From IMG/VR virus record IMGVR_UViG_2630968533_000002: DNA of 20,741 nucleotides. One strand, 5' to 3'. The notes beneath the pieces are model-generated. The model had not been told where the DNA came from. It saw only the letters and a program-made list of their open reading frames with translations, and did not search any database. How positions within the stretch are numbered: the first letter of the stretch is position 1; each line of letters begins with the position of its first letter. This document shows positions 838-19,481 of the stretch, piece by piece. This DNA comes from a virus. Its lineage: Duplodnaviria > Heunggongvirae > Uroviricota > Caudoviricetes. Position numbers and translations under genes: made by a program.

Positions 838-870
838 GTGATATCGATTGCAAAGAAAGTAAATCTGTAA

Positions 871-886
871 CTGTGTTTATATACAG
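871..886. promoter_or_regulatory. LexA (SOS) box CTGTgtttatatACAG upstream of dinD
   Basis: Read directly: perfect CTGT-N8-ACAG palindrome with AT-rich spacer, matching the LexA consensus, placed just upstream of the dinD start. Confidence 0.6.
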
Positions 887-980
887 TTGTGAGTATCTCA
901 CGTTCTCAGTGTGCTGGGCAAAAAAACATCGCAAAATCTGGAGCAGGCACGCAAAACAGAATTGAAGTTGCGGGGAAGAA

Positions 981-1011
981 AAATGCCGCTCTGTTTGAGT
1001 GGGCGGCATTT
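981..1011 (-). terminator. Intrinsic terminator hairpin (9-bp stem AAATGCCGC/GCGGCATTT) followed by U-run on minus-strand transcript
   Basis: Read directly: inverted repeat 981-989 / 1003-1011; minus-strand RNA ends with UUUUUCUU. Would stop leftward read-through from the island before the dinD promoter. Confidence 0.5.
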
Positions 1012-1320
1012 GTGAAGGCTGAAAAGTAAGAATTGGCGTTACGAGTTATTCAATTGGATCTGTTTGTAGAGTATTGGCTTCAATGCCGCATTGTAGCTGG
1101 TTTCTTCCTAATGCGATTTTTGATTATGTACACCCTTATGTACACGGTTTTTTCGGGTGCTTTGGTCAAAAGCCATTGTCTACATCGCTCACGATCGAGG
1201 TGTGTAACCCTGTTCAGGCTTGTTGTACTGCGCACGCGTATTGCTCGTGAAATTGATTGTGAGAGGTAAGTTAATCGCTATTTTTAGGAAGTGTATTTAC
1301 ATAGAATGGGGAAACGGACT

Positions 1321-1351
1321 AAAAAGCTGCCTGTATGATAGGCAGCTTTTT
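1321..1351. terminator. Bidirectional intrinsic terminator (AAAAAGCTGCC-loop-GGCAGCTTTTT)
   Basis: Read directly: perfect 11-bp inverted repeat with 9-nt loop, A5 on the 5' side and T5 on the 3' side; 18 bp downstream of the stop of the 254-aa gene. Confidence 0.65.
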
Positions 1352-1368
1352 AGGCTTACTTATTCCAT

Positions 1369-2133
1369 TTATCGCATTTGTGCTTCTTCTTCACGAATAC
1401 GCTGAATAGCATTTGCTAAACGCAATTTGGAGTTGTCATCCCAATCTTGGGTTCTTTGGCCTACTGGTGCACATGGGGTAATTGAACCACTAACCAGCAT
1501 TTGACGAACTTCAGCAACTTCTTGTGCACTGATAGAAACGTGTGGTGAATGTGGGTTTTTGGTATCCATAATCAGCCCCCTCTGCAATAGAGCTTCGTTT
1601 ACTTCGCTAATGGTTGAAACAGAGTCTTCTACTAATGATGCGTTAGTCCTGAAGTCTAAAAAACGTACAGTGCCGCCAGTGTATGGGTCAAGCTTTTTAG
1701 ATTCTTCAATTGCTGATCTTGCGCAATGGCTATACATCCAGTTTTGCGCAGCAGCACCGCATCCTGAGCCTGTAAAGACAGCGAACAGTTCTTCCGTTTC
1801 GTTATTTTTTACAACTAATTTTTGACCTTTATCAAAAATCACTTCATTAGTTGATTTTTTCACAATATGTAAATTTACCGATTGACCAGTAGGTAAAACA
1901 ACTGGTGGTTCTTGTTGAGATAGGTCTCCTCGCCACCAATGCTTCCATAACTGAATCAAAAGACCATCACCGGCTAAAAGCATAACAAAATCATTTCGTG
2001 GAGCTAGCTTACCGAAGCCGGTATCGTCAATATACAGGATATGACCATCGTAGCCATGTGGGCTAAGATCAACAGACCACCTAGAGTCGGTCGCTACTAA
2101 GGCGTTAACACGATCATATACCGTTGTAGTCAT
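1369..2133 (-). CDS. Hypothetical 254-aa protein; weak motif-level resemblance to HslV/proteasome-type Ntn-hydrolases
   Basis: Long ORF, GC lower than the dinD flank (by eye about 42%), own terminator. N-terminus MTTTV, an AGDG motif and a GSGCGAAAQ motif recall HslV (MTTIV..AGDG..GSGG.YA.AAA) from memory; not verified. Confidence 0.6.
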   Translation of the reverse strand: MTTTVYDRVNALVATDSRWSVDLSPHGYDGHILYIDDTGFGKLAPRNDFVMLLAGDGLLIQLWKHWWRGDLSQQEPPVVLPTGQSVNLHIVKKSTNEVIFDKGQKLVVKNNETEELFAVFTGSGCGAAAQNWMYSHCARSAIEESKKLDPYTGGTVRFLDFRTNASLVEDSVSTISEVNEALLQRGLIMDTKNPHSPHVSISAQEVAEVRQMLVSGSITPCAPVGQRTQDWDDNSKLRLANAIQRIREEEAQMR

Positions 2134-2302
2134 TATAGATGCTCATAAACCATTAAGGTTCAAAAACTCTATAGCAAATGTTGAAAGAAGCAAATTGATT
2201 ATACTTATTAATGCGATGTTGGGTGTCTTGATCTTTTAGCTGATGCTATGCGAAAGCAACGACAGTTTTGCTTGGTCATTGTAGTAAGACACCTCCTTTG
2301 CT

Positions 2303-2590
2303 TTATCGTAGCTGGCAATCTTTATCGCGATAACGCCTGAAGTACCCTCTCGCTTCCTCATCCATACCAAGAGCCGAATGAGTCCGCTTAACTGCCTGTC
2401 TTAAATCTCCGAATCTGTCTGTAGTTGCTGGTGGGCGTGCCGCCTTACGGATACATTCAGAGCGTCTGTTTGCTGCATGTTCACGTTCTTTATCGCCATC
2501 TGCCAGCATCATGACTTCTGCCCATCGTGCGGCAGCTCTCCGGTATAGCCCTTTTGACTCCAGCTCTTCAGCTTTCCTGTCCCTTATCAT
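2303..2590 (-). CDS. Small regulator, PerC-family-like (95 aa)
   Basis: ORF with N-terminal AEELESKGLYRRAAARW motif that I recall as typical of PerC/Pch-type activators; start lies 37-63 bp from a tandem operator array. Confidence 0.5.
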   Translation of the reverse strand: MIRDRKAEELESKGLYRRAAARWAEVMMLADGDKEREHAANRRSECIRKAARPPATTDRFGDLRQAVKRTHSALGMDEEARGYFRRYRDKDCQLR

Positions 2591-2626
2591 TTCTGCCTCT
2601 CAGATTATATAGATAAGCAAAAAGGT

Positions 2627-2747
2627 GTTGGTTCAGTTGGTTCAGTTGGTTCAATTTGTAAAGATCGTTGTTTTTATTGTGTTTTTTCAGAAATATTGAA
2701 CCAACATCAACTCATTTTGAACCAACACAGCCCAGCTCTGAACCAAC
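2627..2747. promoter_or_regulatory. Divergent promoter/operator region: GTTGGTTCA x3 in perfect tandem (2627-2653) and TGAACCAAC x3 inverted, spaced exactly 21 bp (2697, 2718, 2739)
   Basis: Read directly from sequence; AT-rich spacer between the two arrays; lies between divergently oriented regulator genes at 2590 (minus) and 2850 (plus). Confidence 0.65.
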
Positions 2748-2849
2748 AACACAGCGATAGATTTGTGATTGGTCCGTTATTTTCTGGCTGATATTTGAGC
2801 GTATAACAGTGTTATACAGTGGTATACTGTATGGATATTACTCACTGAT

Positions 2850-3305
2850 ATGGTCTTTGCAATGAGCAAATCTAATCTGATCGCGTTCCGCATCCCATCT
2901 GAATTGCAGGATGAGTTTAATCGGTCTGTTCTCGCTTCTGGAGGAGATAAAACCTCCTGGCTTGTTGATGCGATTCGCATGAAGCTGGGACAGCCGGAAA
3001 AGTCTATTGATTCACGAATGCTTGGGCTGGTGGAGCGCATGGAAAAAGCCGCTGCGTCGCTTATTGCCGGAAAGCCGAATATCCCACCAAAGCCATATAA
3101 CGAAACGGCAGTTATAAAGATCATTGCCGATACCATCCAACAGGGATTTGATAATGGGCGTGTGATAGCTGAACGGATCAATGAAGCAGGCTATCAAACA
3201 AAAGCTGGTAAAGCGTGGGATAAAGATATTTACAGCGCGTGGAAGCGTCAGGGAAACAATGCTGAAAAGTTAAAAGCGGTGATTGATTGTAAGGTCAGCG
3301 TATAA
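2850..3305 (+). CDS. Ribbon-helix-helix (Arc/Mnt/CopG-like) DNA-binding protein with uncharacterised C-terminal domain (151 aa; possible start at 2862)
   Basis: N-terminal LIAFRIPSELQDEF...SWLVDAIRMKL fits a beta-strand plus two-helix RHH pattern; preceded by palindromic elements at 2801-2834 (TATAAC..GTTATA, ATACAG..CTGTAT). Confidence 0.55.
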   Translation: MVFAMSKSNLIAFRIPSELQDEFNRSVLASGGDKTSWLVDAIRMKLGQPEKSIDSRMLGLVERMEKAAASLIAGKPNIPPKPYNETAVIKIIADTIQQGFDNGRVIAERINEAGYQTKAGKAWDKDIYSAWKRQGNNAEKLKAVIDCKVSV

Positions 3306-3384
3306 ACATGAGTGCCCATTGGAAAGCTGCTTGGGCCAATAGCTTTATACACCAGCAGTTGGTGACGATAGGTGAGGATCAGGC

Positions 3385-3585
3385 ATGAAAGGCAGAACGC
3401 CACACATTGAACATCAAGCCAACCACTTCTCGGATGTTCGCAATGAGATGATTGCCATTCGCGGTGATATGCACGGAATGGAGCGTCGCCTAGCAGATAA
3501 GATGGACGAGAATCAGAAGTGGATCATCGTCCTGTTGATTTTATCAATTCTTATCCCGCTACTTATCGCATTGGTCACAAAATGA
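3385..3585 (+). CDS. Small C-terminally anchored membrane protein (66 aa)
   Basis: GGTGAGGA Shine-Dalgarno 8 nt upstream of ATG; hydrophilic N-terminus followed by one hydrophobic helix WIIVLLILSILIPLLIALV at the C-terminus. Confidence 0.5.
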   Translation: MKGRTPHIEHQANHFSDVRNEMIAIRGDMHGMERRLADKMDENQKWIIVLLILSILIPLLIALVTK

Positions 3586-3613
3586 ATATCCAATGTGTAT
3601 GCTGTCGATGCTA

Positions 3614-3996
3614 CGCGCGCGTACTTGTCGCAAAATATCAGGCAAAGGCCAGATTCAGAAAGTCGTGATAACCACCAGCACAACATGAGATGTCATGTAA
3701 CGCGATTTATCACACCAGATACATGTGATTGGTGTACCCGCATAAAACATTGTCATAGCGCGTCCTGTGCGCATATACGCCGATAATCAACACATCACCA
3801 CCACTCTGTCTCATGTAGAGAACACTTTTATGGTATCCCCCGCCATCGTGCGCGTACTAGTCGGACGCAGTTGCAAAACTTTTTGCAACTGATACCCCTC
3901 GCGCGCGTACTTGTCTCGAAATTGGTGTTTTGCTGTGGCAGTGATATCAGAAAAATCTTCCTGTTTCACATAAAGCGGATATGCGCGTACTGTAAC
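3614..3996. repeat. Iteron-like array: four copies of GCGCGTACT(N)GT, including a perfect 16-bp direct repeat CGCGCGCGTACTTGTC at 3614-3629 and 3900-3915; perfect palindrome CAGTTGCAAAA-CT-TTTTGCAACTG at 3868-3891
   Basis: Read directly; occupies the intergenic region between the 66-aa gene and the membrane-protein gene. The ORF-track ORF 3595-3786 overlaps it and is probably not coding. Confidence 0.6.
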
Positions 3997-4107
3997 GGCC
4001 CCATCAACGGGGATCGGATTTGAAATCCCGACCCCAAGCTATGTACCAAATGCCATGTCTTGGATATATGATGATTGCCATTCTAAACAACGCTAAAGGG
4101 GGTTGGT

Positions 4108-4722
4108 GTGAGCAGAAAAGATACTAAAGAATTGCTAACTATCTGCATGGTGTACTTTTCAATTTATTTTTGTGCATACATGATAGTCCCAGATGAGTTT
4201 GAACATGGCAGTATTATTTATTCCATAACATTCTATTTTTTAGAGCTAACACCAATTTTGGCTATCCTTTTGGCAATACATATTTATTTTTCCTTAAAAA
4301 AAGAATCGACTAATTGGGAGAAGGTATGGAGAGACAGAGGATTTCTAACATCACCTAAAGATGATGCATATGAGAGTGATTTTTCTGACTTTATAACAAA
4401 CTACTACTCCAGCGAACAATTCAAAAATAGACTGTCTGATGTTTGGGAAACAGCAATGTATTCTATAGGGATTATATTATTGATACTTACTGGTATTGCT
4501 CAATATGTTTTTAACATTGACTTATCATTAAATCCTGAAAATTTAATATCGCCATTGATTTTTGGTGAGATATTGATCTTCTCATTCGGAATTTTCTTGA
4601 GTGTTGTTCTCTGCTCATTATGCAAGCTACTGACTAACAGGTATCCGGGTGAAGCAAGGAGAGCAAGAAAGGCAAATCCATATTATCTTTTATTTCCTAA
4701 TGGAGACAGCAGAGATATCTAA
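4108..4722 (+). CDS. Polytopic inner-membrane protein (204 aa, GTG start), very low GC; candidate superinfection-exclusion or abortive-infection protein
   Basis: AAAGGGGG Shine-Dalgarno 6 nt upstream of GTG; about six hydrophobic helices with a roughly 70-aa charged loop; AT-rich codons (by eye near 30% GC) against a roughly 50% background; convergent with the 701-aa gene. Confidence 0.6.
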   Translation: MSRKDTKELLTICMVYFSIYFCAYMIVPDEFEHGSIIYSITFYFLELTPILAILLAIHIYFSLKKESTNWEKVWRDRGFLTSPKDDAYESDFSDFITNYYSSEQFKNRLSDVWETAMYSIGIILLILTGIAQYVFNIDLSLNPENLISPLIFGEILIFSFGIFLSVVLCSLCKLLTNRYPGEARRARKANPYYLLFPNGDSRDI

Positions 4723-4741
4723 GCCATCCATGGCTAACCAG

Positions 4742-6847
4742 TTATTGAGCTTCTTTTTGTGATGCCTGTGCGACTCTGGTGAGCGATTGTGTGACCGTAC
4801 TGATCGCTCTGTCATATGCTGTGCTACCTTTTGGCGTATTTGCCAGACGTAACAAGGCATTTCGTATAACAGGGCTTTCGTATGCCTTCGCTGCTCCGCC
4901 TACGGCACCAGCAGCAGGAACAACAAACGCAGCCGTTTTTAGCATCCCCGCTAATACTGCTGCGTTTATGATGCCACCACCAACTAACAATCCATAAAGC
5001 TGCTGACCATTTAAGTTTTGAACGTTCGCTTTTGCCGCGTGTCTTGTATCGTTGAGGTATTTAATAACGCCGTCCAGTTCCTTTCCATGTACGCCTTTAA
5101 AGAAAGTTGCTGATTGCTTCCTGTTCCGGTGTAACGCATTAATAAACTTTTCAACACTAATATTTCCAGACGGATCAGTCGCCTTATCTACAGCATTCTG
5201 AACTATGGCTGCTCGTGCGTTTTGCCTACCATTGTCATCCAGAAGCCTGTAAAGCTGAGAACGTTCTGATGGGCTTTGGCTAAAAACGAGTTTTGTTACA
5301 TCCTCAGGCGTGGCCTTGCCGCTGGCTATTGCCTTTTGAACGCGCGTTCTTCCCATCATGTCATTGAATTTAGACCATGAGCGATCAACCCTTGCCATAT
5401 TAATGGCTTCGTCTGCTCCAAGATTTTTGGCTACGGCTTTTTTCATATCCGCCGTATATGCCTTGTAGATAATATCGCTGGCTTTCTGGAGCGTATCTTT
5501 ATCAACAGTGTCAGATGACGCCATAAATCTCTTTCGAAGATCGGTTCTGTTTTCCCTCGCCAGACGCAGGTCATTTGGTCCGCTGGTGATATCGTCTTTA
5601 AATTGCTGCAAGACTTTTACCGCGGCTCTATCCTGAGATTTGCCCGGGCGGCTTAACACGGCAATCTGATTGTCGATAGCTTTTACCGTGTTTGAGAGAT
5701 CGACAGGGGTATCCCCCATAGCGTCAATTATGCGGTTATATCGCTTTCCTGCTGCCTCAATGAATTTTTGTTGCCCTTTAGTCGCAGATTCATAAAGCTG
5801 TTTATCAGAAATGCCACCCAGACCATCGCTAAATGTTCTGACTAAATTTTCTCGTGCTTGTTGTTGATTCAGCCGATTCTTACCGGTTCCAAAAAAAGGA
5901 ACTCTTTCGCCTAATGTCTGAGCCTGACTCTGCATAAAGGTTTTATCTTTCAGCATGTCACTGGTCATTAACGGCAGATTTCTTTCCGATGCAAAGTCGA
6001 CAGCAGCCTTTGCTTCAGGCGACATATCACCACGAACAGCCCTCGAAACCGCACTCGCTGTATTTTCCAGCCCCTTACCAATACCACCAATGCCAGCAGA
6101 AATTACCGTTTGTAACGGATCAATACCTTCTCCACCAGCAAGGCTGGTGGCTCCCTGTAGTGCTAAATCTGTAGCTGCTGATTTTCCTATGGCACCAAGC
6201 ACCGTTCCAGCCCTGCCCGCTGGTGTAAACGCCAGCGCATTAGCCAGAAACGATGCCACGTCTTGCGGCGATAAACCCGGCTTGTTCAGAGCATAATCAC
6301 CGGATGGCAGGGAAACGATAGTGTTACCCTTCTCATCCTGCCTTAATTTCGCTCCCATGCTCTGAAGAATCTTTTCCTGAGATGCGTCAGAGCCGAAAAG
6401 TTGAGACCATCGAGCTTTTAGAGCATCCATGCTGAGTGAGGTTAACTCTGGGGCAAGGTCGACATTTTGCAGTCTCTCCATCTCTGGAGTCATTCGGCTT
6501 TCGCCTGTTATAGCATCGCGCATCGCAGCCCCAAGACTGGCTCCCTGTTCTGCTGAACGCTCAAGCCCCTCTCTTTGCTGAGTAGCTAACTTTGCATACC
6601 CTGACGCAAGAGAATTATCAGATGATGTATGTTGAATATTTTGAGTTGCTGATTGGGCTCGGTCTATTTCATTCGTTGATGGTAGTGGATAGGCAGCATA
6701 AAAAGCCTGCTTAGCCTGTGCTACACTTTCTCCGGCTTGCGGGGCAACGACTTCATTGAAGTATTGCTCCTGAGCCTGCGCTTTTTGTTCTGGTGCTAAC
6801 GCCTGATACTGTGGAGAGGCGATAACATCTTTCCATGCTTTAGCCAT
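4742..6847 (-). CDS. 701-aa Ala/Gln/Gly-rich protein with hydrophobic Gly-rich C-terminus; P22 gp16-like ejection (DNA-transfer) protein candidate
   Basis: Long ORF, start overlaps upstream stop; composition and position as last gene of the 153/225/473/701 series; similarity to gp16 inferred from size, order and composition only. Confidence 0.7.
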   Translation of the reverse strand: MAKAWKDVIASPQYQALAPEQKAQAQEQYFNEVVAPQAGESVAQAKQAFYAAYPLPSTNEIDRAQSATQNIQHTSSDNSLASGYAKLATQQREGLERSAEQGASLGAAMRDAITGESRMTPEMERLQNVDLAPELTSLSMDALKARWSQLFGSDASQEKILQSMGAKLRQDEKGNTIVSLPSGDYALNKPGLSPQDVASFLANALAFTPAGRAGTVLGAIGKSAATDLALQGATSLAGGEGIDPLQTVISAGIGGIGKGLENTASAVSRAVRGDMSPEAKAAVDFASERNLPLMTSDMLKDKTFMQSQAQTLGERVPFFGTGKNRLNQQQARENLVRTFSDGLGGISDKQLYESATKGQQKFIEAAGKRYNRIIDAMGDTPVDLSNTVKAIDNQIAVLSRPGKSQDRAAVKVLQQFKDDITSGPNDLRLARENRTDLRKRFMASSDTVDKDTLQKASDIIYKAYTADMKKAVAKNLGADEAINMARVDRSWSKFNDMMGRTRVQKAIASGKATPEDVTKLVFSQSPSERSQLYRLLDDNGRQNARAAIVQNAVDKATDPSGNISVEKFINALHRNRKQSATFFKGVHGKELDGVIKYLNDTRHAAKANVQNLNGQQLYGLLVGGGIINAAVLAGMLKTAAFVVPAAGAVGGAAKAYESPVIRNALLRLANTPKGSTAYDRAISTVTQSLTRVAQASQKEAQ

Positions 6848-8268
6848 TAATCACCCCATAGTGAAGAAAAATTACTGCTGGCTGCTGGCTGTGATACCTG
6901 CTCAGATTGCGGCAATGTCTGCGACGAAGAAGAAGTTCCTCTGTCAACTGCTGAAATAACCCGCAAAGCATCATAAGCTCGACCAGAAGCAGCTTTCAGC
7001 GAATTGAACTGGTTTTCCATCTTCCTACGCTTGGTATCAATGGTTTTTGTGGAATCACCAGGCTGAGGGAAATACATTTGATAATATTTGGACATTTCAG
7101 CTGGTAGGATAGATGCCCCTGTTTCCTGACGGAGTATTGCCATTATTGCGTCATTAGCATTAACAACGTATTGCTGCTCTGTTGGGCTGAGCGTTAAGTT
7201 AGCCAGCGTCCCATTACCCAAAGCATTATTAATGATCGCCACTCGCTGTGGGCTAAGCTGGTCTTTCAGTGTATCTATTGAATCAAGAGCATCCCTAACT
7301 CTGTATGCAAATCCAGCAGCTTTTTTAGCCCCTTCTGGCGACTTTTCCATGATCTTTTGGGCTGTTGGCAAAGCTATTGGACGAAACCCATCTCCAGATA
7401 TTGGCTGGTTTAGTTTTCCCTGCTCTTCACTTCCGTCTGTGTAGTATTTTGTGACAGTGCCATCATCGTTTTCTCTAACACTCATTAATTTTTTGGCGTT
7501 TGTATTAATTCCAGCCGCTGCCGCAAATGCCGCAGCCCCCTCTGGATCCGCCTTTAACATTTGCGCGTACTGATTGTAATTCTGCATTGCGGCTGTTGGT
7601 GCATATGCTGACGTTAACGCATTTGCTCGGCTAATATCCTGCCCTCTCGCCTGAAGTGCTTCTCCAGCCTGATTGCTGCGGATTGTCTCTGCCAACTTGC
7701 CACGCTCAATATCCCGACCTTCCATTCGATCTTTGATATCGAAGTACTTCTCATGACCGAGAGAAAACAGTGCCATACTACCAGCAAGCCGCTGGAATCC
7801 CTGTGGATCATTAACATGCATTTCGGCAACAGACTCAGGAGAAATCCCCAAGCGACGCATTTCATCTTCGTTATCTGCTATGAATTTTCCAAATGCCCCA
7901 GTTCCGAGCGAAGATGCGATTTGAGCACTAGTCGCAAGATGACCAATAGAATTTCTCTGGTCGTCATCAATAAAGCCCATCCCTTTCTGAACGCTTTCAA
8001 ATTCTTCTGGATACTCAGAAATAAGACTGCGCATTTTGTTTCTGTCTCCAGACTCAAAAGCCCCGGCATATGCTTTCTGAAACTCTGCTTTACGCTGTTG
8101 TTGACGTGCCTGCTGATTAATCTCAGCAACGCCTCTTATCCCCTGTAGCGCCATTAAACCTACGTTTGGCTGCTGCTGATACTGCACAGGCTGAGGAACG
8201 GAAGAACGAGGAGCATTATCATTTTGCGGTGCCATGCTAGGCAGCCCGCCAAGTTGCCATGTCGCCAT
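6847..8268 (-). CDS. 473-aa protein; P22 gp20-like ejection protein candidate
   Basis: Long ORF translationally coupled to both neighbours; size close to P22 gp20 (about 471 aa, from memory). Confidence 0.7.
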   Translation of the reverse strand: MATWQLGGLPSMAPQNDNAPRSSVPQPVQYQQQPNVGLMALQGIRGVAEINQQARQQQRKAEFQKAYAGAFESGDRNKMRSLISEYPEEFESVQKGMGFIDDDQRNSIGHLATSAQIASSLGTGAFGKFIADNEDEMRRLGISPESVAEMHVNDPQGFQRLAGSMALFSLGHEKYFDIKDRMEGRDIERGKLAETIRSNQAGEALQARGQDISRANALTSAYAPTAAMQNYNQYAQMLKADPEGAAAFAAAAGINTNAKKLMSVRENDDGTVTKYYTDGSEEQGKLNQPISGDGFRPIALPTAQKIMEKSPEGAKKAAGFAYRVRDALDSIDTLKDQLSPQRVAIINNALGNGTLANLTLSPTEQQYVVNANDAIMAILRQETGASILPAEMSKYYQMYFPQPGDSTKTIDTKRRKMENQFNSLKAASGRAYDALRVISAVDRGTSSSSQTLPQSEQVSQPAASSNFSSLWGD

Positions 8269-8945
8269 TAGAATCCAAGCCCCCCAACAAGACCAATAAG
8301 CCCACCACCAATAGCGCCTGCCGCAGTACCTATTCCAGGAACAACGGAACCAAGTTGAGCACCCGCTAAAGCGCCTGATGCTGCCCCACCAATACCACGC
8401 GCAAGACTGGATGGCTGCTGCGCCTGACCTGCACGAATAGCGCCAAGCCCCTGCAAGAGTTGTCCGGTATTATTGGCGTAGTTTTGCCCTGCCGTTGCCT
8501 GCCCTGATGCCGCATTCATCCCGACATTTAGCAGGTTTCCATAATTTTGCATTTGCCCACTAAGCCAATTGTTATAAAGCATGGGCGCAATGGAAGATAA
8601 CTGGTTACTGGTAGCTGTTGAGCCAAGCCCCCCGGTAGCTTCTGCTGAGACAAGGTTCTGATAACGGGCCTGATCTGCCTGTGTTTTATATAAACCAGAA
8701 CCAAAGAAATCATTCGCGGCTTTATTCTGCCCTTCCAGAGTCATCAGTCCTTGTAGTTGTTGTAAAGCAGGCAATCCGACTTCTGCATACGGCTTGAGAT
8801 TATTCATCACCGTATTCCACTGCTCGCGCTGCAAATCAATTGCCTGCTGCTGGGCCTTCGCCTGAGCTTTAGAGGCACCACCATCACCGCCTTTTTCGTA
8901 TACGGCACGATTGAGATGTTTATGAGCTATATGGGTAATTAACAT
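8268..8945 (-). CDS. 225-aa protein with Gly-rich hydrophobic C-terminal tail; P22 gp7-like ejection protein candidate
   Basis: ORF overlapping neighbours; C-terminus GIGGAASGALAGAQLGSVVPGIGTAAGAIGGGLIGLVGGLGF; size close to P22 gp7 (about 229 aa, from memory). Confidence 0.7.
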   Translation of the reverse strand: MLITHIAHKHLNRAVYEKGGDGGASKAQAKAQQQAIDLQREQWNTVMNNLKPYAEVGLPALQQLQGLMTLEGQNKAANDFFGSGLYKTQADQARYQNLVSAEATGGLGSTATSNQLSSIAPMLYNNWLSGQMQNYGNLLNVGMNAASGQATAGQNYANNTGQLLQGLGAIRAGQAQQPSSLARGIGGAASGALAGAQLGSVVPGIGTAAGAIGGGLIGLVGGLGF

Positions 8946-9400
8946 TCGCTGAATTCCTTATATTGTTGCCGAGTTAACTGATAAAGCGTTACGCCGACGG
9001 GTTTACCACATCTGATATAAGCATCATCAAGGTGACCAACACGGGTAGCGCCAAGCAAACGGATAATTGCCCGTCCGTATTTGGTGGTGTCAGGAACCAT
9101 GGTAATGCTGTTAAGGAATGGTGAGTTTTCGAGAAGCCATTTGCAGAATAATCGATGCCCTTGCAGTGCATATTCACCACGGAATCCGGGGTCGTACACC
9201 GCATGGCATTCAACAATGCTATGCCAGAAGTTACGCACTTCATGAACGCCAGCCAGCACCAATCCTTCGTAGATGCCGAGATATACCGCATCAGGCTTGA
9301 TGTAGTACGTGTGCCCCGGCTCAACAATATTTTCGGTATTGCCAGGATCGTTAAGAAAGGCCTGTAATCGCACAGGGTTATCAATAAATTTTAGTTCCAT
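8939..9400 (-). CDS. 153-aa protein, first large gene of the operon; gp14-like position
   Basis: ORF overlapping the 225-aa gene by 7 bp; function unknown; assignment by position only. Confidence 0.6.
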   Translation of the reverse strand: MELKFIDNPVRLQAFLNDPGNTENIVEPGHTYYIKPDAVYLGIYEGLVLAGVHEVRNFWHSIVECHAVYDPGFRGEYALQGHRLFCKWLLENSPFLNSITMVPDTTKYGRAIIRLLGATRVGHLDDAYIRCGKPVGVTLYQLTRQQYKEFSEC

Positions 9401-9416
9401 GCGATGCCATCCATTT

Positions 9417-9578
9417 TCACATACAGCCTGCCAGCGCCTTATCTATTAACCCTCGTGCAATTTCATGTAGAGTTGGCGCTACTCCAATTCCTGATTTTTT
9501 ACGCTGCTCTTCCTGAATTTTCTTTATCGCTTCCATTTGCTTCTCACTTATCAATACCGGCTTTACTGAAATAGCCAT
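9417..9578 (-). CDS. Small RHH-like protein (53 aa), not in the ORF track; putative operon regulator
   Basis: Translated by hand: MAISVKPVLISEKQMEAIKKIQEEQRKKSGIGVAPTLHEIARGLIDKALAGCM; AAGGGGG Shine-Dalgarno 4-5 nt upstream; stop 17 bp before the 153-aa start. Confidence 0.45.
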   Translation of the reverse strand: MAISVKPVLISEKQMEAIKKIQEEQRKKSGIGVAPTLHEIARGLIDKALAGCM

Positions 9579-10071
9579 AACGCCCCCTTAGAACTGTATA
9601 AAACAACAGTTATTATAGTTTCATAAAACGCAATATTCATCATGTTTATTGCAAAATGTGAAACGAATAGCACAAGAAAATGCCACCGCTCAGTAGCTGG
9701 TGGCATCGTTCTGTGTGTCAAGTTTTGACAGGTTTTTTATGGACTCTAAAAACTATATTTATGGTGTCGCATTACTCTTCATGGCAGGCGCTTTCCAGTT
9801 CTGCCCTTGCTTCTGGCTCCATTGGTAATTTGATTCGCGATCAGCTATGCGGATGGTTTGCTGAACAGGCATAACAACATCTCAGAGGCTATTTTTTGAA
9901 CTACGAAAATTTCGTAGTGCTCACCTTCAAAAACGTCACGCCCTTGTACACTGGATTTTACAAAAGTCTCGTAAAACTCTTTCCTGTTCTGGGCTATGTG
10001 CCAAACCGCAGCGAATACCTCCGTCTGCCAGATGAGCAAAACATACCTTATAAAGAAAATCGCTGTTTTTG

Positions 10072-10175
10072 CTGTACCACCTGTACCACCATGCCACAAA
10101 CCCTTGTGTGGCGCGGCCTACAGGTGGTACAGGTGGGTAAAAATGACCTCTACCCACCTGTACAGACCTGTACCA
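10072..10175. repeat. Iteron cluster B: multiple copies of GGTGGTACAGG / CCTGTACCACC in both orientations
   Basis: Read directly: CTGTACCAC-CTGTACCACC (10072-10090), GGTGGTACAGGTGG (10123-10136), CCACCTGTACAGACCTGTACCA (10154-10175). ORF-track ORFs across this region are probably spurious. Confidence 0.6.
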
Positions 10176-10180
10176 TTTAT

Positions 10181-10918
10181 TTAATTTTTACCCATAGCAG
10201 CACATAATCCCTTTTTTGAAATATTGAAAAATGCGTTCATTCTTCCCGCTGGTTTAACCTTGTAGCCGCTTGCCACCATCGCCGCAATAAATGCTCCGTT
10301 GGGGATATAGTGCGGGTGATCACTGTGCTGGTGGTTTATCTGGTTATATCGCTCCACTTCATGCTTCAACGTGTCAGATGTGGGGTTATCCTGCGGGAAG
10401 CTCTCAATCTGGGCATTACTCATCCCGTTGTCTCTGATCCATCTCAGGCAGCTTTTCGCCGATACGATAAATGACGGGTTATCAAGCGGGTTTTCCCAGT
10501 CCGCATTCCGGTTGTGGAGCGCCAGTCCGTCAAGGTTAAATTGTGGGTATTCAGCGGTAATTACTGTCACTGCGTGGCGGATTTCAGTCTCGTCACAACA
10601 TGGCTCATCTCCCACACCAGCAGGGTAATAATCTGAACCACCGGGACTGATACAGCGTTTACCACTGAAAGGCCATTGCTTCGCCATTTCGGGTGTTGAG
10701 TGATTACCGTCGCTCCGTTCGCGCTGTGCCTCTGTCCACTGGCTGGCATATTCAGTAAATGAAACCCTTTGCCCCTGGCGCATCCAGTGCGCAATCATAA
10801 TTAAAGTGCGTTCCAGACTTTGGATGTCGCCAGCATTCCCGCACTGTGTAGCGAAACTTTTTAATTCTTCGCGCTCCGTTCTGGTCATTCCCTGCGGTAT
10901 GCAATAGTTATTGTTCAT
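10181..10918 (-). CDS. Hypothetical 245-aa protein between the two iteron clusters
   Basis: Long ORF, overlaps the upstream 76-aa ORF; no family recognised. Confidence 0.55.
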   Translation of the reverse strand: MNNNYCIPQGMTRTEREELKSFATQCGNAGDIQSLERTLIMIAHWMRQGQRVSFTEYASQWTEAQRERSDGNHSTPEMAKQWPFSGKRCISPGGSDYYPAGVGDEPCCDETEIRHAVTVITAEYPQFNLDGLALHNRNADWENPLDNPSFIVSAKSCLRWIRDNGMSNAQIESFPQDNPTSDTLKHEVERYNQINHQHSDHPHYIPNGAFIAAMVASGYKVKPAGRMNAFFNISKKGLCAAMGKN

Positions 10919-14971: not shown

Positions 14972-15185
14972 GTTTCGCCTCGCCTGAATGATTCTGTAAC
15001 TCATATTTGCCCAACAATTCGTCTGCTTCCTGAATAGCTTCTGGTACGCCATTGAGCAGTGACATAACCGCGCCAATCATTAACTTGTCTCTGTTGCTGG
15101 GGCTGGCCCCTTCAAGCCAGAACCCTAAAACAGTCTGAACCTGTTCGATGCGACATTGCGCTTCAATGAGCTGGATGTTGGTCAT
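14964..15185 (-). CDS. Hypothetical small protein (73 aa)
   Basis: ORF whose start overlaps the upstream stop (ATGA). Confidence 0.45.
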   Translation of the reverse strand: MTNIQLIEAQCRIEQVQTVLGFWLEGASPSNRDKLMIGAVMSLLNGVPEAIQEADELLGKYELQNHSGEAKHE

Positions 15186-15445
15186 TTCGCACTCTCCACA
15201 TCGATTAAACTGATATCTATCAGGGAGGTAACTTTTTGTAGCCAGCTATTGATTACTGTCGCCTGTTCCCCTCCCACAGAGGGAATAATCTCATTCATCA
15301 CATGAACCAGACCTGTGCGCGCTCTGGTAAGCCGTTCAGTCGCGCAATCTGCGGGAGTGAATGTGTCTGGATATGGCTCTTCACGCCCCAGCAATGATTC
15401 AATTTCCAGCTCACACGGATGACGATAAATTAAGTTGATATTCAT
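15182..15445 (-). CDS. Hypothetical small protein (87 aa)
   Basis: ORF whose start overlaps the upstream stop (ATGA). Confidence 0.45.
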   Translation of the reverse strand: MNINLIYRHPCELEIESLLGREEPYPDTFTPADCATERLTRARTGLVHVMNEIIPSVGGEQATVINSWLQKVTSLIDISLIDVESAK

Positions 15446-15636
15446 TTTTCACCCCCAAGAATTACCAGCTCGGCACGGGCATCGTTAACCAAAGATGAGC
15501 ACGCTTTAATCGCATCCACGACATCAGCAGCGTCCATTTCTTCAGCTGAAAGACTGACAGCAACCAGGACAGCCGCTGCTTGCTCGATTAATTGAAGTGC
15601 GGACGTAAGGCGAGGGGTATTAATTGAGTTATTCAT
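15442..15636 (-). CDS. Hypothetical small protein (64 aa from MNNSIN)
   Basis: Internal ATG at 15636 with G-rich Shine-Dalgarno-like sequence, overlapping the upstream stop (ATGAATAA). Confidence 0.4.
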   Translation of the reverse strand: MNNSINTPRLTSALQLIEQAAAVLVAVSLSAEEMDAADVVDAIKACSSLVNDARAELVILGGEK

Positions 15637-16657
15637 TGGTTGCCCCCGTTTTTCCTGGCATTTCGCCACCTTCCAGCAGGAAATGAACGTCACGAACGGC
15701 GAGATCCAATATCGCGAGTAACGCCTTCAGTCTTTCGTCTCGTGAGGGAGAGTTGCTCACCAGAATGTCGTTAATCACTTCTGTCAGTGTGATGATCTGG
15801 CTTGTGCGTTCGAGGGGATCCATATGCACATCGTAGGTTTTAATCATGTGCCACCTCCATGCGGATACGACCAGCAAAAAAGCAGACGTGATCGCGCACC
15901 AGAGAACGGCGAGCATCGCGTTCAGACTCGGCAGCAATATGATGAATTTTGGCGGTAATTGTCGGGCAATCGCGGCGAACTGCGGCGATAATCCAGATAA
16001 ATTGCGGTTTTTGGGTAGGGGTAGTAGCCAGCATGTGGCAGCCTCCTTGATTGATGGTTTATAGCCACCGCCCAAGAGACCAATCTTGCTGGCGGTGGAC
16101 TGTACGGAGTTGGCCTTACTGGCAATCAAGGAAACCAGCCTACCCGAAGGTAGCCCCATACAGCCCACCATTGATAAGGTGTGCGTGTGCGCCGATACAA
16201 AAAAAGACGCTGGCGCGTCATGTATCGCCTCGATTGTCAGCGGGAGGCCAATCCCGGCACCCGTTTTATGAGGTGCCTTATAACCATAAACCGTGTTGCC
16301 GCATAACGGCAAGCTCTTTTTTATGGACTCCGAAAACTCACTATTGGAAGCACCAGATGCACAATACATCGCGCTCATTTCGTTAACGTCGCGAGTGTGG
16401 ACGAAGGTTTTTGTGGAGTCACTACGCGAGCAGAGAAAGCCATCTACGACCAGAAATTCTCTGGCGCTGCCGCTGACCTTCTCAACGCTAACATCATCGA
16501 CCGTAATTTCTGACATAGTTAAGGCATCCGCTCCTACCACCAGTAAATGATAAACTTTGCTTGTATCTGCTGTATTAATGCCTGACTTTGACGCCATATT
16601 GCTGGATTTTGGCGACATGCCAGCCAGTGAAAATATCTTCTTCTGGACGGGTATCAT
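15629..16657 (-). CDS. 342-codon ORF, Ser/Leu-rich; the C-terminal 72 codons (15629-15847) may be a separate gene; a second ORF is embedded out of frame at 15840-16034
   Basis: Start ATG at 16657 overlaps the TGA of the upstream 59-aa gene (ATGA); internal MIKTYD start at 15847 has a GGAGGTGG Shine-Dalgarno; true gene structure is uncertain. Confidence 0.4.
15840..16034 (-). CDS. 64-aa ORF, possibly Icd-like (host cell-division inhibitor family), embedded out of frame in the 342-codon ORF
   Basis: Canonical AAGGAGG Shine-Dalgarno 7 nt upstream of ATG; [10 protein letters not shown]...[14 protein letters not shown] motif loosely recalls Icd-like proteins of P4-type elements (memory only). Confidence 0.4.
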   Translation of the reverse strand: MLATTPTQKPQFIWIIAAVRRDCPTITAKIHHIAAESERDARRSLVRDHVCFFAGRIRMEVAHD

Positions 16658-16833
16658 TGGTTAACCTCTGCAAACTCCTTCATGAAACGCGCCAGCGGTT
16701 GTACGCATGGCGATTGATACCCGTCGCGATAAAACGTCACTCGGTTGTGAGACACGCTTTCGACAGTAACGAGTGCTCCGTGGGCATCTTTGTAGCGTTT
16801 TTGAGGTTGTGGTGTTCCTGTTGGCTTAGACAT
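16654..16833 (-). CDS. Small conserved prophage protein (59 aa, DUF4222-like); the ORF track gives a longer version to 16920
   Basis: ATG at 16833 with GGAGG Shine-Dalgarno 6 nt upstream, overlapping the stop of the antirepressor-like gene; family assignment from memory, low certainty. Confidence 0.45.
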   Translation of the reverse strand: MSKPTGTPQPQKRYKDAHGALVTVESVSHNRVTFYRDGYQSPCVQPLARFMKEFAEVNQ

Positions 16834-17659
16834 TGACCGCCTCCAGACGCTTGGCGAGCCAGCGTTGCGACAGGCGGGTGAGTTCTCCTTTGCGCTGCTC
16901 ATATTCCATGCCCATATCAATTAACGTGATATTGGTGCTTTCGAGATATGAGAGGTGCTCAAGTTGTTCTGCGTTCATATGGTCGCGAGGTTCGCCAGAA
17001 TAGCCATTTATCCGCGCCCACTGCTTAGCAGTTAGCCCACCAAGAACGATACGAGAAATCATATTGCTCTCGTTTGTGTAGTGGTGTTGCTGCGTCGTTT
17101 TCCCCTGCTCGGCACGGGCCATATTCAGCGCATCGCACATTGGCTTAAAGTTGTTTGCGGCACTGATACGGGCTTTTAGCTGGCGACGATAGCGGGCGGC
17201 GATTTCAGGCACGCTACGCTGTAATTCTTCCTCGCACTGGATGAAATAACGACGGATAGCGCGACCCTGATCATTGCGTTCGATCATTGCCAGTTCTTTC
17301 GCCATTCCGACACTTAACAGATAGTCTTTGCCGGGTCTGCCAGACTGCTTAATCTTGCTGTAAGCCGCGCCATTCGGGCTTTTCCCCAAATTTGGGGAAA
17401 TTGTTTTATGGACTGAGTAATCGTGCCCAATGGTGAAGTCATATTCAGAGATGCGATCAGTGATCCATGTAGAGAAGTCTTTTCCCACGCCCAACGCTTT
17501 GTGTAACGCTTTTGCGCTAACAATATTGGTTTCACGCCCACCGATATGACCAGGAATAACCGGGACAATTGCGGCAAATTCATTACCGTTAATTGTGCCC
17601 AGAGAGGCGTTCAGATGAGGGGCGGCCTCAGAAATTAATCTGCTTTTTTCGATGTTCAT
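16826..17659 (-). CDS. Phage antirepressor-like protein (Ant/KilAC-type), 277 aa
   Basis: Motif LLSVGMAKELAMIERNDQGRAIRRYFIQCEEE matches my memory of the conserved Ant/KilA-C domain core; not verified by search. Confidence 0.5.
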   Translation of the reverse strand: MNIEKSRLISEAAPHLNASLGTINGNEFAAIVPVIPGHIGGRETNIVSAKALHKALGVGKDFSTWITDRISEYDFTIGHDYSVHKTISPNLGKSPNGAAYSKIKQSGRPGKDYLLSVGMAKELAMIERNDQGRAIRRYFIQCEEELQRSVPEIAARYRRQLKARISAANNFKPMCDALNMARAEQGKTTQQHHYTNESNMISRIVLGGLTAKQWARINGYSGEPRDHMNAEQLEHLSYLESTNITLIDMGMEYEQRKGELTRLSQRWLAKRLEAVNV

Positions 17660-19386: not shown

Positions 19387-19481
19387 TGCGTCACCTTTTA
19401 CGCTGCGCCTTATTTTGTGATTGAGCCAGGCGGTAAGGCTTCCCGCTTTTCGCCCCGTCGAGCTAGGCTCAATCTATTCAG

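What the first reader, a model, noticed from the sequence alone, without database searches (positions are those of the whole stretch)
15629..16657. Overprinted or frameshifted coding region: strong-RBS ORF embedded out of frame in a 342-codon ORF
The 342-codon ORF starts by ATGA coupling at 16657 and runs uninterrupted to 15629. Inside it, in a different frame, a 64-codon ORF (15840-16034) has a canonical AAGGAGG Shine-Dalgarno 7 nt upstream. Immediately after its stop, an in-frame internal start (15847, GGAGGTGG Shine-Dalgarno) would give a separate 72-aa protein. Either this is genuine gene overprinting, or a frameshift has fused what were originally three genes.
Basis: seen in the sequence. 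Interest (0 to 1): 0.45.

Follow-up and report, generated by a model that had tools for sequence, protein, structure and literature searches.

The report
P4-type immunity switch with overprinting ORF
The long reading frame is real and kept open by selection, but it is the "eta"-type read-through frame of a phage-satellite immunity switch, laid over a promoter, two regulatory RNAs and a small toxin-like gene, so it is a frame-shifted variant of a system already known from phage P4.

Summary
ORF342 (15629-16657, -) is open, starts in an ATGA overlap, contains the 64-codon ORF out of frame, and ends as a 72-codon ORF.

ORF342 contains a conserved sigma-70-like promoter, an isrK/seqA-type RNA with an intrinsic terminator (16200-16276), and a C4/CI antisense RNA (16088-16175). 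The C4 loop is complementary to the AAGGAGG Shine-Dalgarno of the 64-codon gene, which is an Icd-like homologue of P4 Kil. This is the P4 immunity region, and ORF342 corresponds to P4 eta (Pfam Phage_ASH).

The long frame is open in all 34 icd-anchored loci from different species. Spacer indels between the RNAs are all multiples of three. The start overlaps or abuts the upstream gene's stop in about 22 of 28 loci and lies within 15 nt in 5 more. Its amino acids are unconstrained (pN/pS about 1; AlphaFold pLDDT below 50 for residues 1-279).

In P4 and 17 other compared loci kil/icd is nested in frame. Here and in 9 others the frame is +1, overprints icd and runs into the next gene. +1 stops inside icd are absent in exactly those loci.

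Most likely function, inferred from P4: ribosome transit makes transcripts from the upstream promoter insensitive to immunity. This is a new variant of a known kind.

The parts
16654..16833 (-). Upstream DUF4222 gene (59 aa). Its TGA stop overlaps the ORF342 start as ATGA.
   Evidence: Pfam DUF4222, 85.4 bits. PGAP-equivalent CDS in L001. Junction read. pN/pS 0.11.
15629..16657 (-). Long eta-like ORF (342 codons), annotated 'ash family protein' in close relatives. It spans the promoter, isrK, C4, the leader, icd (+1 frame) and the 72-aa gene (same frame).
   Evidence: Open in all compared loci. Pfam Phage_ASH matches aa 124-219, which equals nt 16001-16288. The same family matches P4 Eta aa 37-161.
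16283..16312 (-). Internal sigma-70-like promoter of P4 PLE type: -35 TTGCCG (16312-16307), 18-nt spacer, -10 TATGGT (16288-16283), predicted start about 16276.
   Evidence: Conserved block in 27 loci including P4. Sequence read. Activity was not tested.
16200..16276 (-). isrK / P4 seqA-type RNA element. It carries the a1 (16251-16245) and b1 (16236-16228) copies of the C4 target and ends in an intrinsic terminator (hairpin 16219-16206 plus T-run to 16199).
   Evidence: Rfam RF01394, 65 bits, full length. Terminator scan. Cognate C4:isrK duplex mean -28.5 versus -20.2 kcal/mol for non-cognate pairs.
16088..16175 (-). C4 / P4 CI-type antisense immunity RNA. Recognition loop b' is at 16134-16123 (UUUCCUUGAUUG). 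Single-stranded a' is at 16117-16110 (AAGGCCAA).
   Evidence: Rfam RF01695, 79.2 bits, full length. On 23 sequences, 98.9% of cells pair and 18 of 27 pairs have changes on both sides, versus 4-8 in the slid controls.
16035..16087 (-). icd leader, equivalent to the seqC / a2-b2 target: a2 UUGGUCU (16083-16077) and b2 CAAUCAAGGAGG (16053-16042). b2 contains the icd Shine-Dalgarno AAGGAGG (16048-16042).
   Evidence: Complementarity read. RNAduplex gives -27.3 kcal/mol in the window. Cognate mean is -31.0 versus -20.8 for non-cognate pairs, and the cognate target ranks first in 21 of 27 loci.
15840..16034 (-). icd-like gene (64 aa), homologue of P4 kil. ORF342 overprints it in the +1 frame.
   Evidence: NCBIfam NF033153, 71.7 bits. 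44% identity to P4 Kil, E 4e-11. pN/pS 0.36-0.39 in its own frame versus 1.5-1.6 in the +1 frame.
15629..15847 (-). 72-aa gene of unknown function, with its own Shine-Dalgarno (GGAGGTGG). Its start overlaps the icd stop (ATGATTAA). It shares the ORF342 frame and so forms the ORF342 C-terminus.
   Evidence: Orthologues in Pluralibacter, Leclercia, Symbiopectobacterium and Buttiauxella; pN/pS 0.47. It is the only part of ORF342 with a predicted helical fold (pLDDT 58-65). No Pfam, NCBIfam or PHROG match.
15442..15636 (-). Next small gene (64 aa from ATG 15636). Its start overlaps the ORF342 / 72-aa stop as ATGAATAA.
   Evidence: Annotated CDS WP_001065738.1 in L001 and L002.

Best explanation
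The region is the immunity and early-operon switch of a P4/PICI-type satellite element. The element carries an integrase, AlpA, AntA and DUF4222, then this region, then small genes and a P4-alpha-type primase.

Quiescent state (inferred from P4):
- A constitutive promoter inside ORF342 fires at about 16276.
- Its transcript starts with the isrK/seqA element and partly stops at that element's terminator.
- Read-through RNA is processed to the stable C4/CI RNA.
- C4 pairs through its loop and its 3' single strand with seqA (a1, b1) and with the leader (a2, b2). b2 includes the icd Shine-Dalgarno.
- icd is therefore not translated, and transcription terminates before the replication genes.
- The ORF342 start codon is not on this transcript.

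Induced state (inferred from P4):
- Transcripts arrive from the upstream alpA-antA-DUF4222 operon.
- Ribosomes finishing DUF4222 restart at the overlapping AUG (AUGA).
- They translate ORF342 straight across the promoter, isrK, terminator hairpin, C4, leader and icd.
- That ribosome traffic denies the nascent RNA to C4 pairing, hairpin formation and Rho. The upstream transcripts are then insensitive to immunity and reach the downstream genes.

What matters is the act of translation, not the polypeptide. The difference from P4 is the frame. In P4, kil is the in-frame C-terminus of eta. Here a one-base-shorter leader puts the long frame at +1, so it overprints icd and merges with the frame of the next gene (72 aa).

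Shown here: the anatomy, the homology to P4, RNA covariation, loop-target covariation, selection for an open frame, and the lack of amino-acid constraint.

Inferred from P4 work: promoter activity, RNA processing, Rho-dependent termination, and anti-termination by translation.
For: 1. Homology to P4.
- Rfam C4 and isrK both hit inside ORF342 and at P4 CI and seqA.
- Icd-like is 44% identical to P4 Kil.
- Phage_ASH matches both ORF342 and P4 Eta.
- P4 eta is a 214-codon ORF that ends with kil.

2. Published mechanism.
- PMC10111431, section 20, citing Forti et al. 1999, states that eta contains the constitutive promoter, CI and seqA, and that Kil is a truncated Eta.
- It also states that full-length Eta is translated only from the upstream late promoter, is translationally coupled to the alpA homologue, and prevents termination.
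- PMC4825925 calls IsrK a structural homologue of P4 SeqA.

3. The RNA system is functional.
- C4 structure: 98.9% of cells paired, and 18 of 27 pairs carry compensatory changes.
- Cognate C4:leader and C4:isrK duplexes are about 8-10 kcal/mol stronger than non-cognate ones, and rank first in 21 and 22 of 27 loci.

4. The frame is kept open by selection.
- 0 stops in the eta frame in 27 of 27 loci, versus 3.2-5.3 in the other five frames.
- Six more distant loci are also open.
- The six different isrK-to-C4 distances (98, 101, 125, 128, 140, 185 nt) are all 2 mod 3.
- The start overlaps or abuts the stop of the upstream gene in about 22 of 28 loci and lies within 15 nt of it in 5 more, whatever that gene is.

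5. The frame is interchangeable.
- 18 loci are in frame with icd, 10 are +1, and none is +2.
- None of the 10 '+1' loci has a +1 stop inside icd. 16 of the 18 in-frame loci have at least one, spread over about ten different codon positions.
- The +1 state arises from at least four different leader changes.

6. There is no protein-level constraint.
- pN/pS is 1.00 and 0.93 over the 'Ash domain' and 1.5-1.6 over icd in the eta frame.
- The N-terminal 105 codons are about four to five times more variable than the neighbouring genes, with pN/pS 0.47 versus 0.26 and 0.11.
- AlphaFold gives pLDDT below 50 for residues 1-279.
Against: - Nothing here shows that ORF342 is translated, that the internal promoter fires, or that termination is Rho-dependent in this element.
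- The primary P4 paper could not be read. The mechanism rests on a secondary summary and on my own knowledge of it.
- The compared loci are related. The counts are therefore not independent events, and no phylogenetic correction was made.
- pN/pS of 0.47 in the N-terminal part leaves room for weak amino-acid constraint.
- In the +1 arrangement the long product would carry the 72-aa protein as its C-terminus. That could have a function of its own.
- The upstream genes here (AntA, DUF4222) lie between alpA and the long ORF, unlike in P4, where vis is directly upstream.
Confidence: 0.75

Rival explanations
1. ORF342 is a meaningless open frame over a non-coding regulatory region. The real features are only the two RNAs, icd and the 72-aa gene. 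'Ash family protein' is then purely an annotation artefact and is never translated.
For: - Both RNAs, a promoter and a terminator lie inside the ORF.
- pN/pS is about 1 in the Ash part.
- No fold is predicted.
- PGAP annotates the same ORF inconsistently: as a full CDS in L001 and as a pseudogene in L002 and L003.
Against: - A non-translated region should accumulate stops. The frame has 0 stops in 27 of 27 loci, and is also open in 6 distant loci, while the other five frames carry 3-5.
- Spacer indels come only in multiples of three.
- The start overlaps or abuts the upstream stop in about 22 of 28 loci and lies within 15 nt in 5 more.
- +1 stops in icd are missing only where the long frame uses +1.
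- Eta is reported to be translated in P4.
Confidence: 0.1
2. ORF342 encodes a genuine multi-domain 'Ash family' protein, such as a regulator or antirepressor-like protein of the Bro network. Its sequence-specific activity matters, and the RNAs are simply embedded in its gene.
For: - The Pfam Phage_ASH match is above the cut-off (50.4 versus 26 bits).
- PHROG families hit by this stretch are labelled transcriptional regulator or repressor.
- Thousands of database entries 320-360 aa long exist.
- PMC10111431 groups eta with Bro-network genes.
- N-terminal pN/pS is 0.47, which is below 1.
Against: - The conserved 'domain' coincides exactly with the promoter, isrK, C4 and the leader. Its pN/pS equals that of the other two frames (1.00 and 0.93).
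- The N-terminal part ranges from about 8 to 185 residues and is not alignable across genera.
- The C-terminal part is either Kil, or an alternative-frame read of icd plus an unrelated downstream protein of 59-291 aa.
- AlphaFold gives pLDDT below 50 and no secondary structure for residues 1-224.
- The 'repressor' labels probably reflect the older view that c4 and cI were proteins. This point rests on my own knowledge.
Confidence: 0.1
3. A recent frameshift or assembly error in this particular sequence fused separate genes. The intact state has a stop near 16040.
For: The long frame differs from the P4-type in-frame arrangement by a single base in the leader.
Against: - The same 342/343- or 355/356-codon frame is present in L001, L002, L004 and 12 of 14 IMG/VR loci.
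- It also appears in protein clusters with hundreds to more than a thousand members.
- The +1 arrangement occurs in 10 loci from several genera, with different leader lengths of 50, 53 and 56 nt.
- No homologue has a stop in this frame.
Confidence: 0.03

Closest known systems
Phage P4 immunity region: PLE promoter, seqA, CI RNA, seqC and the nested genes eta and kil (Forti et al. 1999; Sabbattini et al. 1995)
   Same: - Same order of parts: alpA-family gene upstream, a long ORF starting upstream of an internal constitutive promoter, isrK/seqA with terminator, C4/CI RNA, a leader that contains the target and the Shine-Dalgarno, a kil/icd gene of about 65 aa, a next gene starting NTGnnTAA over its stop, and a primase operon.
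- The same Rfam, Pfam and NCBIfam families match.
   Different: - kil/icd is not nested in frame. The leader is 53 nt instead of 54, so the long frame is +1, overprints icd and continues 211 nt into the next gene.
- The long ORF is coupled to a DUF4222 gene, not directly to the alpA/vis homologue.
- The N-terminal part is longer (about 380 nt from the start codon to isrK, versus 120 or about 72 nt in P4, depending on which ATG is used).
- The downstream gene is unrelated to P4 epsilon.
- The element lacks sid, delta and psu in this window and looks like a PICI.
Phage P1/P7 immI operon (c4 antisense RNA, a1/b1 and a2/b2 targets, icd, ant)
   Same: - C4-family RNA with loop-target complementarity both upstream (a1, b1) and over the icd ribosome-binding site (a2, b2).
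- Icd-family small protein.
- Specificity evolves through covarying loops and targets. Rfam also has a c4-a1b1 family that hits some of the related loci.
   Different: - The antirepressor-family gene (AntA) lies upstream of the RNA module, not downstream of icd.
- The module gates a replication (primase) operon.
- A long read-through ORF spans the RNAs. To my own knowledge this is not described as a functional part of P1 immI.
Gifsy-1 isrK-orf45-anrP locus of Salmonella (PMC4825925)
   Same: - An isrK RNA with a leaky terminator is followed by a processed stable RNA (STnc1160).
- It is also followed by a small ORF whose nucleotide sequence is conserved while its amino-acid sequence is not. Translation of that ORF is needed for the downstream gene.
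   Different: - There the short IsrK RNA acts in trans to activate translation of orf45 and anrP.
- No long ORF from an upstream gene is described.
- The downstream gene is an antirepressor rather than icd plus replication genes.
EcCIMP1-type E. coli PICI (PMC11773190)
   Same: Same gene set and order: integrase, AlpA, antirepressor, 'Ash family protein', primase, DNA-transfer proteins, PerC.
   Different: That paper treats 'Ash family protein' as a conserved protein-coding gene. It does not describe the RNAs or the overprinted icd. Identity of this window with EcCIMP1 itself was not tested.

Membership tests
P4-type immunity module (eta/kil with CI RNA) | CI/C4-type structured antisense RNA | tested here: met
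   RF01695, 79.2 bits, full length. The same model hits P4 CI. 18 of 27 pairs covary.
P4-type immunity module (eta/kil with CI RNA) | Target copies upstream (seqA) and downstream (seqC) complementary to the CI loop | tested here: met
   isrK hit, RF01394, 65 bits. Window duplexes are -29.9 kcal/mol (isrK) and -27.3 kcal/mol (leader). Cognate exceeds non-cognate across 27 loci.
P4-type immunity module (eta/kil with CI RNA) | Constitutive promoter just upstream of seqA, inside the long ORF | tested here: inconclusive
   Conserved TTGCCG-18-TATGGT block aligned with the P4 PLE region. The generic scan did not list it. Activity cannot be tested here.
P4-type immunity module (eta/kil with CI RNA) | kil: a gene of about 65 aa, the first translated gene after CI, with its ribosome-binding site in the target sequence | tested here: met
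   64-aa ORF, 44% identical to P4 Kil. NF033153, 71.7 bits. The Shine-Dalgarno lies inside b2. Toxicity was not tested.
P4-type immunity module (eta/kil with CI RNA) | eta: long ORF starting upstream of the promoter and translationally coupled to the upstream gene | tested here: met
   ORF342 starts 381 nt upstream of isrK in an ATGA overlap. The start overlaps or abuts the upstream stop in about 22 of 28 loci and lies within 15 nt in 5 more.
P4-type immunity module (eta/kil with CI RNA) | kil nested in frame as the C-terminal part of eta | tested here: not met
   The long frame is +1 relative to icd (53-nt leader) and continues 211 nt past the icd stop. 18 of 28 compared loci meet this feature and 10 do not.
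P4-type immunity module (eta/kil with CI RNA) | Rho-dependent termination (timm) controlled by CI and relieved by translation | not testable with these tools
   Known only from the literature.
P1/P7 immI operon | c4 RNA with a1/b1 and a2/b2 targets, followed by icd | tested here: met
P1/P7 immI operon | Antirepressor gene (ant) downstream of icd and translationally coupled to it | tested here: not met
   The gene downstream of icd is a 72-aa gene with no family match. The AntA-family gene lies upstream, at 16826-17659.
Pfam PF10554 Phage_ASH ('ash family protein') | Profile match above the gathering score | tested here: met
   50.4 bits against a cut-off of 26, aa 124-219.
Pfam PF10554 Phage_ASH ('ash family protein') | Behaves as a protein domain (amino-acid constraint, foldable) | tested here: not met
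   pN/pS is 1.00 and 0.93, the same as the other frames. pLDDT is below 50 and no secondary structure is predicted. The matched stretch equals promoter, isrK, C4 and leader.

The most novel reading that the evidence does not exclude
The 'Ash family protein' ORFs of enterobacterial satellites and prophages, several thousand sequences in the clusters found here, may be kept open purely as a ribosome track. Under this reading, selection acts on uninterrupted translation across an antisense-RNA/terminator switch and not on the polypeptide. The frame would therefore be free to toggle by one-base indels between 'kil nested in frame' (P4) and 'kil overprinted at +1 and fused to the next gene' (this window). 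Stops would be purged only from whichever frame is in use. This would be a clear natural case of an ORF of about 200 to more than 600 codons under selection for openness alone. It would also mean that a Pfam family, and a marker used in satellite censuses, is the translation of two regulatory RNAs.
Probability: 0.55. Interest if true: 0.6.

Novelty: new variant of a known kind. Interest (0 to 1): 0.45.

Why it matters
- **Annotation.** It explains a recurrent annotation puzzle. In near-identical E. coli loci the same stretch is called either 'ash family protein' or a pseudogene plus 'Icd-like protein'. The locus is in fact a promoter, two RNAs and three overlapping reading frames.
- **Support for the P4 model.** The comparison gives evolutionary support for the idea that translation itself, not the Eta protein, defeats immunity-dependent termination. 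It extends that idea to PICI-type elements in many genera.
- **A natural control.** The +1 arrangement shows that the long ORF need not contain Kil. This separates the ribosome-transit role from any role of a Kil-containing polypeptide.
- **A caution for surveys.** Studies that use PF10554 or 'Ash' as a protein marker are detecting the immunity RNAs.

Tried and rejected
- **Chance ORF (my first hypothesis).** I first took ORF342 for a chance ORF over ncRNAs. I rejected this when all icd-anchored loci showed the same open frame.
- **Sequencing or assembly frameshift.** Rejected.
- **A real gene on the opposite strand.** The candidate was the + strand ORF 16293-16550, 85 aa, which might have explained the N-terminal substitution pattern. 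It has no Pfam hit. The codon-position pattern [18, 3, 12] against L004 does not fit that ORF's frame. With 18 sequences the pattern is [24, 12, 24], which is not significant.
- **72-aa protein as a P4 epsilon analogue.** No similarity and no family hit.
- **Reading Forti et al. 1999 directly.** The paper is not held.
- **tblastn of ORF342 against phages.** It returned only the isrK-C4 part under 'immunity region', 'regulator' or 'antirepressor' annotations. P4 itself had to be fetched by accession.
- **Generic promoter scan.** It did not list the conserved internal promoter. The promoter was found by alignment instead.
- **Technical note.** Several icd-finding scripts failed on variant Shine-Dalgarno sequences before worked.
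Full report
**1. The observation**

- One search lists a 342-aa ORF at 15629..16657 (-) and a 64-aa ORF at 15840..16034 (-) in another frame.
- One search shows the ORF342 ATG (16657) overlapping the TGA of the upstream gene as ATGA.
- AAGGAGG (16048-16042) lies 7 nt before the 64-codon ATG.
- GGAGGTGG precedes an ATG at 15847 that is in the ORF342 frame.

One detail needs correcting. The 72-codon start overlaps the stop of the 64-codon ORF (ATGATTAA) and does not follow it.

**2. What lies inside the ORF**

A scan against Rfam at gathering thresholds finds two full-length RNA families inside ORF342 on the same strand:
- C4 antisense RNA at 16088-16175 (79.2 bits).
- isrK at 16200-16276 (65 bits).

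isrK ends in an intrinsic terminator, GACGCGCCAGCGTC followed by a run of T. Immediately upstream of isrK, a block conserved in 27 loci reads TTGCCG-18 nt-TATGGT and is positioned to start transcription at about 16276.

The 64-codon ORF matches the NCBIfam 'host cell division inhibitor Icd-like' model (71.7 bits).

The only Pfam hit of ORF342 is Phage_ASH, over aa 124-219. That stretch is nt 16001-16288, which is the promoter, isrK, C4 and the icd leader.

The C4 hairpin loop (UUUCCUUGAUUG) is complementary to CAAUCAAGGAGG. The single-stranded AAGGCCAA of C4 pairs with UUGGUCU further upstream in the leader. isrK carries a second copy of both targets.

**3. Identity with the P4 immunity region**

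In phage P4 (NC_001609) the same two Rfam models hit the CI RNA (8420-8507) and the seqA region (8615-8692).

A 214-codon ORF (8168-8812) spans them and ends with the 65-aa Kil sequence. Kil is 44% identical to the window's Icd-like protein. Phage_ASH matches that P4 ORF at aa 37-161, so it is eta.

PMC10111431 summarises Forti et al. 1999 as follows:
- eta contains the constitutive promoter, CI and seqA.
- Kil is a truncated Eta.
- Full-length Eta is translated only from the upstream late promoter.
- Its translation prevents termination.

PMC4825925 calls IsrK a structural homologue of P4 SeqA.

The window's wider context fits a P4/PICI-type element. It holds an integrase, the int-alpA RNA, AlpA, AntA and DUF4222, then this region, then small genes and a primase with zinc-ribbon, Toprim and DUF5906 domains. 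It resembles the EcCIMP1-type PICI gene set.

**4. Is the long frame more than an accident?**

I first assumed it was not. I then collected 32 loci from different species, anchored only on icd. I added P4, three E. coli loci and 14 IMG/VR loci. The tests gave these results:
- **Stop counts.** In all 27 loci with both Rfam hits (the window, P4 and 25 species loci), one frame has 0 stops from 80 nt upstream of isrK to the icd ATG. The other five frames average 3.2-5.3 stops.
- **Distant loci.** The six loci without Rfam hits at threshold also have a 290-430-codon frame running into icd.
- **Same frame throughout.** The open frame is the same one relative to both RNAs. The six distinct isrK-to-C4 distances (98, 101, 125, 128, 140, 185 nt) are all 2 mod 3.
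- **Start coupling.** An in-frame start codon overlaps or abuts the stop of the upstream gene (ATGA, ATGnnTAA, TAATG or TGATG) in about 22 of 28 loci and lies within 15 nt of it in 5 more, although that gene varies from 59 to 280 aa.
- **Annotated 'pseudogenes'.** L002 and L003, where PGAP calls the ash gene a pseudogene, have intact long frames.
- **Database abundance.** Protein-database clusters of 342-355 aa hold hundreds to more than 1,300 members.

**5. The frame is interchangeable**

The distance from C4 to the icd ATG puts the long frame in the icd frame in 18 loci, including P4. It puts it at +1 in 10 loci, including the window, and never at +2.

None of the ten +1 loci has a +1 stop inside icd. 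Sixteen of the eighteen in-frame loci have at least one, spread over about ten different codon positions.

The +1 state is reached by different changes: a shorter Shine-Dalgarno-to-ATG spacer, an internal leader indel in L016, and leaders of 50 nt and 56 nt. L002 and L015 share one leader type and differ only by GCCACATG versus GCCACCATG.

In nine of the ten +1 loci the next gene starts ATGnnTAA over the icd stop, which is the +1 frame. The long ORF therefore runs on through that gene, whatever it is (59-291 aa).

**6. No constraint on the amino acids**

pN/pS values are as follows:

| Region and frame | pN/pS |
|---|---|
| icd, own frame | 0.36-0.39 |
| icd, eta frame | 1.5-1.6 |
| Promoter + isrK, eta frame | 1.00 (other frames 0.80-0.89) |
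| C4 + leader, eta frame | 0.93 (other frames 0.93-0.98) |
| ORF342 codons 3-107 (18 close relatives) | 0.47 |
| AntA (same relatives) | 0.26 |
| DUF4222 (same relatives) | 0.11 |
| 72-aa gene | 0.47, with saturated pS |

Among the 18 close relatives, ORF342 codons 3-107 have 60 variable sites in 315 nt, distributed [24, 12, 24] by codon position. The neighbouring AntA shows [6, 8, 22] and DUF4222 shows [1, 3, 8].

Across genera the N-terminal part ranges from about 8 to 185 residues and is not alignable.

AlphaFold with a 36-sequence alignment gives pLDDT below 50 for residues 1-279 and no secondary structure before residue 225. Only the 72-aa C-terminal part reaches 58-65. That 72-aa gene is under purifying selection.

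**7. The RNA switch is functional and specific**

On 23 C4 sequences, 98.9% of cells pair and 18 of 27 pairs carry changes on both sides. Slid controls give 4-8 such pairs.

The duplex energies between the C4 recognition part and its targets are:

| Target | Cognate mean (kcal/mol) | Non-cognate mean (kcal/mol) | Cognate ranks first |
|---|---|---|---|
| Own leader | -31.0 | -20.8 | 21 of 27 |
| Own isrK | -28.5 | -20.2 | 22 of 27 |

**8. Mechanism**

What is shown:
- The anatomy and the homology to P4.
- RNA covariation and loop-target covariation.
- Selection for openness of the long frame.
- The absence of amino-acid constraint on it.

What is inferred from P4:
- The internal promoter makes isrK/seqA and, by read-through and processing, C4.
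- C4 pairs with seqA and with the leader. It blocks the icd ribosome-binding site and allows termination before the replication genes.
- Transcripts from the upstream alpA-antA-DUF4222 operon carry the ORF342 start.
- Ribosomes restarting at the ATGA overlap translate across the whole switch and protect the RNA from C4 pairing, the terminator hairpin and Rho.

The specific feature of this window is that the ribosome track runs at +1 through icd and into the next gene.

**9. Rivals**

- A meaningless, untranslated ORF is contradicted by paragraphs 4 and 5.
- A sequence-specific 'Ash' protein is contradicted by paragraph 6.
- A sequencing frameshift is contradicted by the wide occurrence of the same frame.

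**10. Limits**

- There are no expression data.
- The primary P4 paper could not be read.
- The loci are related and the counts are not phylogenetically corrected.
- Weak constraint on the N-terminal part cannot be excluded.

**11. Verdict**

The system is of a known kind, the P4 eta/kil-CI immunity switch. The out-of-frame, overprinting arrangement appears to be an undescribed variant, and the comparative evidence that only the openness of the frame is selected also appears to be undescribed. Interest is moderate.

Noticed in passing
window 15182-15445 (-); L001 3006-3269: In a 98.5%-identical E. coli genome, RefSeq/PGAP names this 87-aa hypothetical protein 'nicotinic acetylcholine receptor subunit beta'. 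This is an evident mis-naming. No Pfam, NCBIfam or PHROG hit.
   Followed up: partly
L036 (phage P4) 8168-8812 versus 7888-8175: Pfam PF10554 (Phage_ASH) matches P4 Eta. It does not match epsilon, which belongs to PF25738. The P4-like satellite census PMC8628076 lists PF10554 as its profile for epsilon. That marker therefore appears to detect the immunity-RNA region rather than epsilon.
   Followed up: partly
window 1-10918: Beyond the primase the element carries several further genes: DUF2824 (8939-9400), a P22 gp7-like ejection protein (8268-8945), a P22 injectosome-translocase-like protein (6847-8268), a 701-aa ORF with no family hit (4742-6847), PerC (2303-2590) and a Bro-N protein (1-837). 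This resembles the EcCIMP1-type PICI with 'DNA transfer' genes.
   Followed up: partly
window 19407-19473 (-): An int-alpA RNA (RF02996, 60.6 bits) lies between the integrase gene and the next ORF.
   Followed up: no
window 16657, 15847, 15636: Successive genes of this operon are chained by overlapping stop and start codons: ATGA, ATGATTAA and ATGAATAA. The NTGnnTAA junction after icd recurs in many of the related loci and in P4 (kil/epsilon).
   Followed up: partly
L031 1819-2128; possibly one degenerate copy near window 16395-16425: In other genera the N-terminal part of the eta-like ORF contains several direct repeats of about 30 nt (consensus near GAAGGTTTT..CGGA.ATCAC.ACGCGAG). These produce a recurring 'F.TSTR' peptide motif. 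They may be regulator-binding sites or iterons. Their function is unknown.
   Followed up: no
window 16296-16312: The inverted repeat TTGCCGTTATGCGGCAA overlaps the -35 hexamer of the internal promoter. The scan listed it as a terminator-like site on the + strand. A similar imperfect palindrome is seen in many of the related loci. It could be an operator.
   Followed up: no
L050 1863-2067; L046: One IMG/VR relative (L050) has a truncated icd (40 aa) and a shortened long frame (289 codons). Another (L046) lacks the icd motif. These are probably decayed or mosaic copies.
   Followed up: no
window 16293-16550 (+): An 85-aa ORF lies antisense to the N-terminal part of ORF342. It has no family hit, and the substitution pattern does not fit its frame. 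It is probably not a gene.
   Followed up: partly
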